Assembly (NCBI GenBank): GCA_964035545.1
Contig: OZ037766.1
Coordinates: 33,346,773-33,410,772, forward strand
From: Bugula neritina
Taxonomy: Eukaryota; Animalia; Bryozoa
Length of the DNA stretch: 64,000 nt
Reading direction: 5' to 3'
A program made the position numbers and the translations under genes. The notes beneath the pieces are model-generated. The model searched no databases, had not been told where the DNA came from, and worked only from the letters and a program-made list of their open reading frames with translations. Below are positions 12,101-64,000 of the stretch, in pieces; within the stretch, counting starts at the first letter, position 1, and every line of letters starts with the position of its first letter.

Positions 12101-15100
12101 TATTATAATATTTTATATTATATTATATTATGTTATACTATATAATATTATATTATATTATGTTATACTATATAATATTATATTATATTGTTTTATACTA
12201 TATTGTATTATATTATATTGTTTTATACTATATTGTATTATATTGTATTGTTTTATACTATATTGTATTATATTATACTCAACTGAATTTATAGCTGCTT
12301 ATATATAAAGATTTTAAAGGCAGAAACCTGCACTTCAAATTCAAACTTTGACACACTGATTTATACTAAAATGGGTATTTGAATAATTTCATAGACACTT
12401 GATATTTTATTTTCTAAAGCTTTGAAACTGCTAGTGAGAATAAATTGATACTGCAGTTCAGGTAAACTCTGTTTATAAACATGGATTGTATACAAGGCAT
12501 GAGTACAATCACTTCATGTAGACATGTATACAACACTGTAACAATAGCCAACTTCAAACATCATTGTTTATTCATTGTTGATAAATTTGTAATTATCCAA
12601 ACTTTGAAAAGGTTCCGCCAATTAGTAAAGACTCTGGCTGTATATTGGCTGAGCACAAAGCCTTGTGCTGGCAGAGTGGTTATACGTGAGTAAATAGGGG
12701 AATAGTATGACAATTTCCATAAGATGAGCAAAGAATTACGTAAGATCTTAGCTATGCCAGCTACAGTCTACTCTGCTCAATAGACTAGTCAAAAGAAGTT
12801 AATAGAGAGCATTTCTCTAAATTAGAATTCATTTTCCAATAATTAAAGTTTGTGGCTGATCAAAATATATGATATTCAGAGAATGCAATACCACTGGCCG
12901 CTGACAGGTTGCTGGCAGGTTGTTAGACGCTCACTAAAAAGATACCTTTGTATAGGTTTTTTTTCCCCTTTCCTTACAGCCTGACGTTTGTTTAGAGAGC
13001 TAAACGTGCACTCAACTATAAATATTTAAATTGATTTGACTGATGATGTAATCATACATAATTTCACTCAAACTCTTAATGGACAGACAGACAGACAGAC
13101 AGACAAAATACCAGCTTGTAATACTTTTAGGATATATGTGTTATATACGAATATATATATAGCGTAATAATGTAGACCACTAATAATATAATATTTCATA
13201 TTAAATCATTAACCATCAAAACCAGCTACACAGCACTACTATATTTATGTTCATGTTCTGCAAATAGTCATGTATACAATTTGTTTTTGACTTTCATGTA
13301 TTTCCGTCATGAATAACAGATGTAAGGAAAATATACCTATTGAAGATACGCAATGCCTCCATTCCACAAGTGCCCCACTTACACTCTGATAAGCTTCAAA
13401 GACAAATGAATACACACGTTATTTAAACAGTTCTGCCGGCACTTTAAAACCTGATAAACTAAACAGTAATTTTCGTGAGAATTTTCTGTCAAGTTTTCTT
13501 ATCAATTGCGTTTATGTTTAGTTCCTTGAAAAAAAACAAAGAATTCAATGATTTCGGGATTATACAGTGGAAATAAATGAAACCATTATTAAGGCATATT
13601 ATTGAGGTTTGAGATGAGAAAAAAATTCTAGTTCAAGTCAATTAAACATTCAGAGACTTTGAAATCTCTGCCGAAAAAAAGTTCTCTTCAATGAGAAATA
13701 ATATTGGAAGAGGATCCAAAAAGTAAAAAGGTTCTATAAATAGTGATTATTACATACAGCTTCAAATTATATATAACATGTTATAGCTAATAATATATTG
13801 TATATTTCATAATATATATAATATATAACATGTTATAGCTAATAACATATTGTATATTTCATAATATATATAATATATAACATGTTATAGCTAATAACAT
13901 ATTGTATATTTCATAATATATATAATATATCTATTGCACGCAGTTCTCTCACCATTAAGTTCTGTGCTATTTAATCCACACTCGCCTACTTTGAAGGGAA
14001 GATACAGTTTGAGGTGCAATTTTGAGAATTCACACTTAAATATGCAGCTTGATGGTGGCAATAAAATAATACGGGCAATAAATTAGACCGATAATCACAT
14101 CATTTTGACTTGTAGCTACCTATTGCTGCGTACAATAAACAAGCATTTTATTGTGCTAAACAGTCTTGGTATATACACAGATTTACCCATTTTATTGGGC
14201 ACTTGAAATGAAAAGTTGTTCAACTGCATAATTAACCGTTTTTATTGGGTTTCGGGAATTACCTTGTTTGAATTTTTGTATCCATATCATAAAATGGGAA
14301 CAGGAATAATGCAACTTTTTATCAACTTGTCAGAATTTTCTAAAATGATTCAAATATATGAACATATACTTTTAAAAATTATGATATAATTGTTATTTAA
14401 TTTTTTGATTTCTATTCTTCGTCTCTACTTTTTGAAAAAAATTTTCAAATAAATAAAATAATAGATATATTACTTTTCATGAGTACAACATGCAGCATAC
14501 TCGAAGAACTACAGGTGAGCCCCTAACAGCCACCCTTTTCCTCCCCCCTAATATATATATAATACTTACAGTTATTAACATAATATATATAATATTTATA
14601 GTTACTTTCATATTATATATAATAGTTACAGTTATTAACATAATATATATAATACTTACAGTTATTATGATATTATATATAATACTTACATCTATTAACA
14701 TATATTATATCTAATACTTACAGTTAATAACATATATTATATATAATACTTACAGTTAATAACATATATTATATATAATACTTACAGTTAATAACATATA
14801 TTATATATAATACTTACAGGTAATAACATATATTATATATATATAATACTCACAGTTATTATTCAGGCTGCTGTTGATCCAGCCAGAGTAGTTTTGACTT
14901 TGCTGCCTCTCTTTCAACATCTCGTCTTCCATGTTATGCTGATGAGTCGTGACCCCTTGACTTCCTGTGGCCATGATGGCGCAGGGCGAGTAGTGAGTTG
15001 CCGGATGACCTTGACTAATGAGGTCATTCTGCGGATGAGTCGGGAAGTAACCCGGATGTTTGTACACAATGTCAGCTGACTCGATGTTAGTTTGATACGG

Positions 15101-15349
15101 CAGCGTATTACTCCAGCCAGAATGGGGGTAGTGAGGAGTGACTGAGTCATCTTTCCCTGACGTCTGCTGCCAGTAAGTTCGGTTATAGTGCTGCTCGTAG
15201 TATCCCGTAGAAGATGTGTCCACCTGAGCAGCTGTCTGGTAGGTGGGGGGTGCGTAGGTCTGAGAGACGCTGTACATGGCTGACGTAGCGTTCCTTGTGT
15301 ACATGCCTGCTGTCTCGTAGTCTATGACTTGCCCCTCGTAGTGCACCAT
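9165..15349 (-). CDS. Cdx: Caudal/Cdx ParaHox homeobox protein
   Basis: Exons 15349-14854, 11110-10965, 9359-9165. Homeodomain [62 protein letters not shown] is diagnostic of Cdx, with the usual intron at Q|V. The Tyr-rich N-terminal exon has a hexapeptide-like YSGW. Confidence 0.97.
9470..10155. repeat. ~28-31-bp minisatellite in Cdx intron 2
   Basis: Unit GGTATCAGGAGCGTATAGTATAGATGAGGGTT-like. Confidence 0.9.
11879..12038 (-). mobile_element. tRNA-derived SINE in Cdx intron 1
   Basis: Minus strand reads GGGCGCAGCCGTAGTCTAGGGGTTAAAGCG (A-box-like) ... GGGTTCGGACCC (B-box-like), then a non-tRNA body, AATAAA and an A10 tail. Confidence 0.75.
14057..14248. promoter_or_regulatory. Cluster of six CAATAAA (Cdx/posterior-Hox-type) motifs in Cdx intron 1
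   Basis: Motifs at ~14057, 14074, 14132 (+) and 14146, 14190, 14240 (-) in otherwise non-repetitive sequence. Confidence 0.45.
14550..14860. repeat. ~30-bp minisatellite spanning the Cdx exon-1 donor
   Basis: Minus-strand units AATAACT-GTAAGTATTATAT.. copy the true junction AATAACT|GTGAGTATTATAT. Confidence 0.85.
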
Positions 15350-62600: not shown

Positions 62601-64000
62601 TATATATTACTATACGTATGCTACAGGAGAGAAGCCAGGCTGCTAGAAGAACACACTCTCAATCAGTCGAGGCTCCAGGACTCACAAGATGCCAAACTGG
62701 AAGTCCGGGAGGCCGTCTACCGACAGGAAATGGGGTCTCTACGAGCTCAGAAGAGTCTGCTGATGGAGCGTCTTGGAGAGTCTGTAGATGAGGTTAGCAG
62801 ATACAAGGAGGAGAATAGAGGTGAGTATTCTGTGACTACAGACCATGTGCGTCTCTTACAGCGTATACTCACACAGCTGTGTTATTCACTGTAGAGTATA
62901 GACTATACACTGTAGAGTATAGACTATACACTGTAGAGTATAGACTATACACTGTAGAGTATAGACTATACACTGTAGAGTATAGACTATACACTGTAGA
63001 GTATAGACTATACACTGTAGAGTATAGACTATACGCTGTAGAGTATAGACTATATGCTGTAGAGTATAGACTATACGCTGTAGAGTATAGACTATACGCT
63101 GTAGAGTATAGACTATACGCTGTAGAGTATAGACTATACGCTGTAGAGTATAGACTATACGCTGTAGAGTATAGACTATACGCTGTAGAGTATAGACTAT
63201 ACGCTGTAGAGTATAGACTATACACTGTAGAGTATAGACTATACACTGTAGAGTATAGACTATACACTGTAGAGTATACACTATACACTGTAGAGTATAG
63301 ACTATACACTGTAGAGTATAGACTATACACTGTAGAGTATAGACTATACGCTGTAGAGTATAGACTATACGCTGTAGAGTATACACTATACACTCAGTCT
63401 ACCCTGTGTACTGTATAGCCTCTGTTCTCTCTCATCATAGACTTGGCTCATGAAAATCAGCTGATGTCGTCGTTCACTGGTAACATCTCGGACATGTTGG
63501 CCATGGCCAGCTCTAGTAAATGTGATGCCAACAACAGTCAGTATAACTCGGCATTCGATGAACAGACAACAGGTTCGTTTCCCTCAACTCACTTTACTCT
63601 CGACATGTTTGTCGTTTAGTCTGTCTGTCTGTCTATCTGTTAGTCTGTCTGTTAGTCTGTCTGTATGTCTCTAACTGTTTGCTGATTTGCTCCTGCAGAC
63701 TTCCTGCCATTTGGTGCGAGTCCCGACCCGGTGAGACGTCTGATTGGCGATGAGACGCTCAACAGCACTCTCCGAGACAGTCACACTCACTCCAGTCCCT
63801 CAAAGTCTGCCAGGTCTAATGACCACCACAACTCTACCTCCACACCAAAGAAAGCCAGCATGAACCGGTCTCCATACGACACACGAGGTCAGGTTTCAAG
63901 GTCGTCTCGCTCTCACAACTCCTCAAAGTCTTCCAGCCACAAGTCCAGGTCTTCCAATCACGACCAGCGTGCAGCGTCGCCCCTCAGCAGGAAGTCTCAG
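53690..64000 (+). CDS. CEP63: Centrosomal protein CEP63/DEUP1-like coiled-coil protein, 3'-truncated
   Basis: Exons 53690-53826, 54221-54332, 54543-54713, 55606-55696, 56228-56324, 56793-56973, 57473-57618, 58694-58780, 58968-59100, 59183-59245, 60078-60181, 60715-60880, 61293-61391, 62116-62237, 62627-62820, 63441-63572, 63699->64000, all in frame. N-terminal LMTSCESELSELIRQIDIMFKSKKNEW and LKKQYEKM match the CEP63/DEUP1 signature. Confidence 0.85.
53835..63392. repeat. Series of distinct intron-private minisatellites in CEP63 (e.g. 53835-54176, 55190-55600, 55716-56165, 56525-56785, 56959-57419, 57637-58675, 59260-60050, 60200-60680, 60900-61270, 61400-62112, 62245-62610, 62888-63392)
   Basis: Direct reading; no unit is shared between introns. 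Confidence 0.92.

What the first reader, a model, noticed from the sequence alone, without database searches (positions are those of the whole stretch)
14550..62610. Recurrent donor-spanning arrays: exon end plus GT site amplified into the intron
Seen in four more genes. Cdx 14550-14860: AATAACT|GTAAGT copies, closer to consensus than the real GTGAGT. Ig receptor 22260-22836: ATATACA|GTGAGT x~26. GPCR 38339-39523: A|GTGAGT x>35. CEP63 56959-57419: ATTCTACAGTTGGT|GTGAGT, carrying 14 exon bases; and 62245-62610: AG|GTGAGA. Because units include exon sequence, amplification nucleated across the junction itself. In each case the exon-proximal copy preserves the frame.
Basis: seen in the sequence. 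Interest (0 to 1): 0.78.

Follow-up and report, generated by a model that had tools for sequence, protein, structure and literature searches.

The report
Splice-junction minisatellites in repeat-filled bryozoan introns
In this moss-animal DNA nearly every intron holds a tandem repeat, and about one intron in eight has a repeat that copied an exon edge together with its splice signal, a kind of repeat already described in lancelets and humans that here likely arises by chance in what were likely very short introns.

Summary
Partly confirmed; known kind. All five arrays exist and start in register with a modelled donor, but only three carry real exon sequence (Cdx 8, Ig receptor 7, CEP63 intron 6 14 bases). 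The GPCR (1 base) and the second CEP63 array (2 bases) only abut the donor. The window is a cheilostome bryozoan: 44 of 51 modelled introns hold arrays (66% of intron bases), with a median collapsed length of about 80 nt. Four acceptor-spanning arrays were missed, so the effect is not donor-specific. Random nucleation in short introns predicts 3.3-5.9 donor-spanning arrays; 3 are seen. Spliced RNA contigs of a ~5% diverged sister lineage use the exon-proximal CEP63 donor. These are amphioxus 'mirage' / human F7-type junction minisatellites; the scan noted the same on other DNA (38 findings, at least 20 genomes). Two leads remain: arrays in long introns cluster at exon edges (P 0.002-0.08), and CEP63's last codon seems to share variants with its array copies.

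The parts
14550..14861 (-). Cdx intron 1 donor-spanning array, period ~32, 8 exon bases; modelled donor after 14854
14854..15349 (-). Cdx coding exon 1 (modelled); a sister-lineage genomic ORF is 92% identical
11102..11164 (-).
22252..22836 (-). Ig-receptor intron 2 donor-spanning array, 22 nt x26.5, 7 exon bases; donor after 22830; 5-nt end microhomology, collapsed intron about 46 nt read by eye
38338..39524 (+). GPCR intron 6 array, 32 nt x37, begins at the donor GT (38339); only 1 exon base
56960..57419 (+). CEP63 intron 6 donor-spanning array, 31 nt x14.6, 14 exon bases; donor after 56973
56793..56973 (+). CEP63-like exon 6; both ends supported by spliced RNA contigs of two studies (sister lineage)
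   Evidence: homologous exons P0122-P0125
62236..62612 (+). CEP63 intron 14 array, 20/22 nt x17, in register with the donor at 62238; 2 exon bases (AG)
3666..3946 (+). DIX-domain gene intron 6 acceptor-spanning array, 29 nt x9.7, at least 12 exon bases (acceptor 3929 modelled)
4675..6070 (+). DIX-domain gene intron 8: 16-nt unit carrying GTAAGT, 86 copies in register with the donor, no exon bases
33471..33825 (+). GPCR intron 2 acceptor-spanning array, 29 nt x12, 12 exon bases (acceptor 33814)
34782..35395 (+). GPCR intron 3 acceptor array, 24 nt x25, 3 exon bases; each unit has a branch-point-like TACTAAC and YAG
46920..47113 (-). PLRG1 intron 4 acceptor-spanning array, 50 nt x3.9, 9 exon bases; unit about as long as the collapsed intron (56 nt)
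47114..48418 (-). TIR-bounded element inserted at a TA at the end of that array; second copy at 25873-27227, 92% identical

Best explanation
These are junction-spanning minisatellites (amphioxus 'mirage' / human F7-intron-7 type) that likely arise as a chance by-product of a tandem-repeat process that has filled 44 of the 51 modelled introns of this bryozoan window. Steps: (1, inferred) ancestral introns were short, about 40-100 nt after collapsing arrays; (2, inferred from the two-copy arrays, most of which end within a few bases of a whole unit) a 10-50 nt segment duplicates head to tail by slippage or repair at short microhomology; (3, shown by calculation) with units of median 20 nt in introns of median 80 nt, a fair share of such segments must straddle a donor or an acceptor; (4, geometry) a straddling duplication leaves the original junction intact as the exon-side copy and pushes every new copy into the intron, so it is neutral if the exon-side site is used; (5, shown for CEP63 intron 6 in a sister lineage, inferred elsewhere) the spliceosome uses the exon-side copy, likely by exon definition or upstream-first selection as shown for F7; (6, inferred) the array then grows, shrinks and homogenises by unequal exchange, and any mis-spliced RNA would mostly be frameshifted or stopped and removed by NMD.
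For: Seven gene models over 51 GT-AG introns translate without internal stops; PLRG1 matches Watersipora subatra PLRG1 at 405/468. 44 of 51 introns hold arrays, 24,651 of 37,327 intron bases. Collapsed lengths: median 80.5 nt, 26 of 44 at or below 100 nt; units median 20.5 nt. Spanning arrays with at least 7 exon bases: 3 donors, 4 acceptors. Expected per side 5.9 (no floor), 4.8 (floor 82), 3.3 (floor 150); P(at least 3 donors) 0.65-0.95. No sense-strand bias of donor or acceptor scores in 52 units. 11 of 17 arrays under 3.5 copies have a fractional copy of 0.1 or less. RNA-like contigs of two studies join CEP63 exon 6 at 56973 to exon 7 at 57473, with no contig at a decoy (2 of 3 RNA runs covered the stretch). 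Joints also confirm PLRG1 introns 7 and 8. Of the 97 decoys tested in the five cited arrays, 1 leaves the ORF open. Same layout, with mostly normal splicing, in F7 (PMC1557585) and amphioxus (PMC3087553).
Against: The null rests on collapsed lengths, and some (25-45 nt) are shorter than any array-free intron here (82-761 nt, 7 introns), so flanks were probably eroded. If ancestral introns were 400 nt or longer, 7 spanning arrays would be an excess (P 0.04 at floor 400; P 0.014 with present-day lengths). In the 10 long introns, 11 of 23 arrays lie within 40 nt of a junction against 3.8 expected (cut-off chosen after seeing the data). A threshold-free test gives P 0.002, 0.006 without PLRG1 intron 10, and 0.077 without Cdx intron 1 as well. 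Cdx intron 1 (3.7 kb) is spanned at both ends. RNA support covers one of the five cited donors, comes from a lineage ~4-5% diverged, and contigs drop rare forms. One window, small counts.
Confidence: 0.7

Rival explanations
1. Nucleation is drawn to exon edges. Some lesion or chromatin feature at exon-intron borders (transcription-linked breaks, nucleosome or methylation boundary, or simply the base composition there) starts arrays at or beside splice sites on both sides.
For: Edge clustering in long introns (11 of 23 against 3.8). Both ends of the 3.7-kb Cdx intron are spanned. Array density is 4.65 per kb of non-array sequence in introns against 2.21 outside gene models. Non-array intron sequence within 100 nt of a junction is closer to the units' trinucleotide flavour (-0.20 to -0.31) than deep intron (-0.47).
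Against: The overall count is at or below the short-intron null. Two long introns are short array-filled introns later split by insertions: PLRG1 intron 4 by a TIR element, PLRG1 intron 10 by an ~800-nt insert with the same 23-nt unit on both sides. The same history could explain others. Significance is lost when two introns are left out (P 0.077). The flavour gradient is confounded by decayed array margins.
Confidence: 0.17
2. Boundary creep: arrays were born inside the intron and later reached over the junction, through secondary duplications at the array edge or by exchange that made the exon end match the unit.
For: At CEP63 intron 6 the first base of the last codon is G in this exon and in 3 of 14 copies (the two nearest among them), but A in 11 copies and in the sister lineage's exon, so exon end and array seem to have exchanged sequence. 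Many arrays stop 0-13 nt from a splice site.
Against: Exon overlaps code for ordinary protein; the 9 bases at PLRG1 intron 4 encode residues identical in Watersipora, so the unit came from the exon, not the reverse. The Ig-receptor array has clean 5-nt microhomology at both ends.
Confidence: 0.07
3. The spare donors are functional and selected, tuning expression by unproductive splicing and NMD, or giving alternative isoforms.
For: All 25 Ig-receptor decoys and 12 of 13 CEP63 decoys score at or above the true site. ABCA7 shows one-unit retention and length-dependent splicing in humans (PMC5954066, passages). The Cdx +36 decoy is in frame.
Against: No decoy-spliced contig in 2 covered RNA runs at CEP63 (rare forms would be dropped). 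The sister-lineage Cdx ORF stops five codons into the intron (P0121), so the +36 read-through is not conserved. Arrays fill most introns whether or not they hold splice sites.
Confidence: 0.04
4. Assembly or annotation artefact.
For: No whole genome was held to cross-check; four of the five cited donors rest on my gene models alone.
Against: Independent DNA runs of a diverged lineage hold array units at CEP63 intron 6 and PLRG1 introns 7 and 8. Copies carry structured variants. ORFs are continuous.
Confidence: 0.02

Closest known systems
Amphioxus 'mirage' minisatellites (Adh3, globins BflGb6/BflGb9; PMC3087553, passages read)
   Same: Tandem units spanning an exon-intron boundary, at 5' and at 3' boundaries, in a marine invertebrate; splicing reported as normal; Adh3 units 10-72 bp.
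   Different: Here 7 clear cases in 6 of 51 introns, against a background where 44 of 51 introns carry arrays. The paper reports that cluster boundaries are left out of homogenisation in BflGb6, whereas CEP63 intron 6 suggests the exon-embedded copy takes part (one case).
Human F7 intron 7 37-bp VNTR (PMC1557585; abstract, Discussion and passages read); CBS intron 13, LMNB2 and PDGF arrays as cited in that paper
   Same: First monomer holds the exon end plus the donor; identical pseudo-donors follow; the most upstream site is used.
   Different: Upstream-first selection was shown by mutation in F7 and is untested here; CBS uses extra sites. Human cases are scattered single loci.
Human ABCA7 intron 18 25-bp VNTR (PMC5954066, passages read)
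   Same: Unit begins at the donor GT with no real exon part, like GPCR intron 6, CEP63 intron 14 and DIX intron 8.
   Different: ABCA7 shows one-unit retention and disease association; no decoy use is shown here.
Intron gain by tandem duplication at exon-intron boundaries (PMC2812944, passages read; Rogers model as cited in PMC3087553)
   Same: Tandem copies holding splice signals; the CEP63 intron 14 and GPCR intron 2 units contain AG-GT.
   Different: No new intron is seen. The CEP63 intron 6 position appears old: four distant genomic ORFs switch to Val (a GT codon) at the same residue (inference).

Membership tests
Junction-spanning minisatellite (mirage / F7 type) | First unit includes exon bases and crosses the splice junction | tested here: met
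   3 of the 5 cited arrays (7, 8, 14 bases) and 4 acceptor arrays (9-12 bases) beat all 50 foreign junctions; not met for GPCR i6 (1 base) and CEP63 i14 (2 bases)
Junction-spanning minisatellite (mirage / F7 type) | Head-to-tail copies run into the intron and keep GT or AG | tested here: met
   8 of 9, 25 of 25, 13 of 14 donor copies keep GT; acceptor copies all keep AG
Junction-spanning minisatellite (mirage / F7 type) | Exon-proximal site is the one used in mRNA | tested here: inconclusive
   Met for CEP63 i6 in RNA-like contigs of two studies from a ~5% diverged lineage; the other four cited donors rest on ORF continuity only
Junction-spanning minisatellite (mirage / F7 type) | Copy-number polymorphism | tested here: inconclusive
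   Contigs do not span the cited arrays; a length difference between lineages was seen only for the non-spanning PLRG1 intron 7 array
Junction-spanning minisatellite (mirage / F7 type) | Pseudo-sites are competent and are passed over by position (scanning) | not testable with these tools
   needs minigene mutagenesis as in PMC1557585
Donor-initiated VNTR (ABCA7 type) | Unit begins at the donor GT, no significant exon part | tested here: met
   GPCR i6, CEP63 i14, DIX i8
Intron gain by tandem duplication | Intron is new and made wholly of duplicated exon sequence | tested here: not met
   CEP63 i6 keeps 53 nt of non-array intron and its position is shared with four distant homologues; other introns not tested against outgroups
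   3 donors, 4 acceptors, expected 3.3-5.9 per side; no strand bias; one window only

The most novel reading that the evidence does not exclude
This bryozoan lineage runs a genome-wide, sequence-flavoured repeat generator that nucleates preferentially at exon edges, has inflated almost every tiny intron about ten-fold with its own minisatellite, has put banks of identical splice sites beside about one intron in eight, and keeps exchanging sequence with the exon-embedded copy, so that terminal codons evolve in concert with intronic arrays.
Probability: 0.17. Interest if true: 0.68.

Novelty: new member of a known kind. Interest (0 to 1): 0.3.

Why it matters
The arrays themselves are a described kind. 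Their density is what could be useful: if 6 of 51 introns with clear spanning arrays, plus several abutting ones, holds genome-wide, one animal would offer thousands of natural series of identical donors and acceptors at 16-50 nt spacing. That allows a direct test, outside mammals and without constructs, of whether position or strength picks a splice site. It also warns that aligners and gene predictors will misplace junctions here. The near-universal filling of introns by minisatellites was not found described for bryozoans in my searches and may be the more notable background fact.

Tried and rejected
No whole genome was held, so the genome-wide test could not be run and all statistics are from 51 introns in one window. 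The protein search with the CEP63 exon at 62628-62819 found nothing. The Cdx exon 1 search gave one genomic ORF and no spliced protein, so the Cdx donor has no outside support. One of the three RNA runs laid on CEP63 (X17) gave no cover, which proves nothing. Sister-lineage DNA could not give pre-array intron sizes because it already holds the arrays. The idea that all units descend from donors was rejected: excluding the 11 in-register arrays, 1 of 41 units has a GTRAG motif in sense and 3 in antisense. The 18-nt array at 20082-20198 looks donor-like but is an in-frame coding repeat of the Ig receptor and was left out. One array inside the transposon (47476-47521) was dropped before the null counts (59 to 58 arrays), and the transposon was removed from PLRG1 intron 4. 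A single 15-nt-offset duplication with 7 exon bases at PLRG1 intron 8 was not counted as spanning; counting it gives 4 donors, still at or below expectation for floors up to 100 nt. No enrichment of frame-preserving units: 3 of 228 decoys in 11 arrays leave the ORF open. Splice scores come from a small matrix trained on this window's 51 sites and are rough. Earlier-findings look-ups near this place and among relatives were empty. Two bryozoan genome papers searched by term (PMC11480708, PMC7576161) have no occurrence of 'intron' or 'tandem' in the main text, and the Flustra paper (PMC13326412) none of 'intron' or 'satellite'; supplements were not seen and may tabulate simple-repeat content.
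Full report
Context. The window is animal DNA, about 47% tandem array (86 merged TRF clusters, 29,967 of 64,000 bases). A PLRG1 exon found Watersipora subatra as best of 220 hits (95% on the exon), and the full model is 405/468 identical to it. It is therefore most likely a cheilostome bryozoan of another genus; I assign no species. No whole genome was held. I modelled seven genes by hand from six-frame translations and splice candidates: a DIX-domain gene, Cdx, two receptor-like genes (one Ig-type), a GPCR, PLRG1 and a CEP63-like gene. All 51 introns are GT-AG and all ORFs are continuous. 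Pfam supports the labels firmly for the homeodomain and DIX exons and weakly for CEP63, 7tm_1 and Ig (5 of 8 exons hit).

Observation. To measure junction overlap I extended each true junction against the copies in its own array and compared it with the 50 other junctions laid on the same array. Cdx intron 1 carries 8 exon bases (score 23, best foreign 9), Ig receptor intron 2 carries 7 (63 against 9) and CEP63 intron 6 carries 14 (65 against 15). GPCR intron 6 is in register from the GT onward but has 1 exon base. CEP63 intron 14 has 2; its donor is a diverged first copy (18-19 of 22 against the long unit). So three arrays span the donor and two start at it.

The same test finds four acceptor-spanning arrays with 9-12 exon bases (DIX intron 6, Cdx intron 1, GPCR intron 2, PLRG1 intron 4), one with 3 (GPCR intron 3), and several abutting arrays on both sides, including 86 GTAAGT copies in DIX intron 8. 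The seven clear cases lie in 6 of 51 introns. The background matters more: 44 of 51 introns hold arrays, covering 24,651 of 37,327 intron bases. Collapsing each array to one unit leaves a median of 80.5 nt, with 26 of 44 introns at or below 100 nt; the median unit is 20.5 nt. In PLRG1 intron 4 the 50-nt unit is about as long as the collapsed intron (56 nt), so overlap is close to forced.

Chance test. For 58 arrays in 44 introns (one array inside a transposon dropped) I placed a unit-length segment uniformly over the collapsed intron and counted overlaps of 7 or more exon bases. Expected per side: 5.9 with no floor, 4.8 with ancestral introns of at least 82 nt (the shortest array-free intron here), 3.3 at 150 nt. 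Observed: 3 donors and 4 acceptors. An excess appears only if ancestral introns were 400 nt or more (P 0.04 for 7 on either side), or if present-day, array-inflated lengths are used (P 0.014); for donors alone there is no excess under any length tried (lowest P 0.12). Units show no sense-strand bias towards donor-like sequence (25 against 26 of 52). Results against this reading: in the 10 long introns, 11 of 23 arrays lie within 40 nt of a junction against 3.8 expected (cut-off chosen after viewing). A threshold-free version gives P 0.002, 0.006 without PLRG1 intron 10, and 0.077 without Cdx intron 1 too. At least two long introns are short ones split later: PLRG1 intron 4 by a 1.3-kb TIR element with a second copy in the window, and PLRG1 intron 10 by an ~800-nt insert with short inverted ends between two halves of one 23-nt array.

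Splicing. A run search with the PLRG1 region listed 22 runs from 8 studies. Laid contigs differ from the window by about 4-5% in exons, so they represent a sister lineage. Two of four runs laid on PLRG1 join across modelled introns 7 and 8 exactly; the other two are genomic and already hold arrays in both introns, one at a different length. At CEP63 intron 6, two of three RNA or RNA-like runs, from two studies, gave one contig each that leaves the genome at the exon-proximal donor (56973) and continues into exon 7; none ended at a decoy; the third gave no cover. The DNA run of the same sample holds short unit contigs at 4-5 times single-copy depth each, so the array predates the split. Contigs drop rare forms, so low decoy use is not excluded. 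Decoys are often as strong as the true site (25 of 25 in the Ig receptor, 12 of 13 in CEP63 intron 6, 7 of 8 in Cdx, 0 of 34 in the GPCR; window-trained matrix), so choice by position is the likely rule. Of 97 decoys in the five cited arrays only Cdx +36 leaves the ORF open, and a sister-lineage ORF stops five codons into that intron.

A side result. The last codon of CEP63 exon 6 is GGT here and AAT in the sister-lineage RNA. The 14 array copies read GGT (3, including the two nearest), AGT (8), AGC (2) and AAT (1) at that place. Sharing of G between the exon and its nearest copies, and of A between distal copies and the sister exon, suggests continuing exchange between exon end and array. It is one case, and parallel mutation is possible.

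Mechanism. Short-segment tandem duplication is inferred from the small arrays, 11 of 17 of which end within 0.1 unit of a whole copy, and from the 5-nt microhomology at both ends of the Ig-receptor array. A duplication that straddles a junction keeps the original junction on the exon side and is neutral if that site is used. Growth by unequal exchange is established knowledge for minisatellites and is inferred here. Units share a flavour: ATA/TAT 2.7-fold, GTA/TAC 2.4-fold and AGT/ACT 1.8-fold enriched, AAA/TTT 0.12-fold (75 units). This makes GTAAGT- and TACAG-like words common in arrays on both strands and could add a mild composition bias towards splice sites.

Comparison. The layout is that of the human F7 intron 7 VNTR, where the most upstream of several identical donors is used; that paper also lists CBS, LMNB2 and PDGF (PMC1557585: abstract, Discussion, passages). 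It is also that of amphioxus 'mirages', which occur at both boundaries and do not disturb splicing (PMC3087553, passages). The abutting arrays match ABCA7 intron 18 (PMC5954066, passages). The scan has noted such arrays in 38 findings from at least 20 genomes (unchecked notes; one gave me the mirage lead, which I then read). Five searches did not turn up a description of near-universal intronic minisatellites in bryozoans; the library lacks most subscription papers, and supplements were not seen.

Verdict. Real, partly overstated, and a new member of a known kind. Recurrence in this window is explained by short introns plus very frequent array birth, on both sides of the intron. Interest 0.3. 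The edge clustering and exon-array exchange are the leads worth a genome-wide test.

Noticed in passing
window 1-64000: 44 of 51 modelled introns hold a minisatellite or microsatellite array, almost all with different units, 66% of intron bases; collapsed introns are 25-130 nt in 29 of 44. Not found described for bryozoans in five searches.
   Followed up: partly
window 56960-57419: Last codon of CEP63 exon 6 differs between lineages (GGT here, AAT in sister RNA) and the array copies hold GGT, AGT, AGC and AAT, with GGT nearest the exon: possible concerted evolution of exon end and array.
   Followed up: partly
all non-coding arrays: Units share a strand-symmetric flavour (ATA/TAT, GTA/TAC, AGT/ACT, CTA/TAG up; AAA/TTT, CG, GC down), unexplained.
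   Followed up: partly
window 45472-45552: At 82% likeness, short contigs matching the PLRG1 intron 8 unit reach summed depth of 1,600-10,700 against 55-170 for single-copy flanks in two genomic runs, so similar units are abundant elsewhere in the genome.
   Followed up: no
window 47114-48418 and 25873-27227: Two copies (92% identical, opposite orientation) of a 1.3-kb TIR-bounded, TA-flanked element with internal palindromes; one sits in PLRG1 intron 4 at the end of an array. Coding capacity not checked.
   Followed up: partly
window 43453-44264: About 800-nt insert with 9-nt inverted ends and an apparent 5-nt flanking duplication splits a 23-nt array in PLRG1 intron 10; no second copy in the window.
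   Followed up: partly
window 34782-35395: About 25 copies of a unit with TACTAAC plus YAG form a bank of complete branch-point-and-acceptor decoys; the -24 and -48 copies would keep the frame.
   Followed up: partly
window 14818-14853 (minus strand): Use of the second Cdx donor would add 12 codons in frame just before the homeodomain exon; not conserved in P0121.
   Followed up: partly
window 20082-20198 and 19842-19890 (minus strand): In-frame coding repeats (6-residue and 3-residue units) in the cytoplasmic tail exon of the Ig receptor.
   Followed up: no
window 28257-28388, 19531-19691, 6257-6637: Arrays at or just past modelled stop codons, where there is no splice site; may point to exon-edge rather than splice-site bias.
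   Followed up: no
window 54836-54883: Possible in-frame 48-nt extra exon in CEP63 intron 3, not included in the model.
   Followed up: no
window 28380-30434 (minus strand): Second receptor-like gene with a signal-peptide-like first exon upstream of the Ig receptor; 3' end uncertain, family not tested.
   Followed up: no
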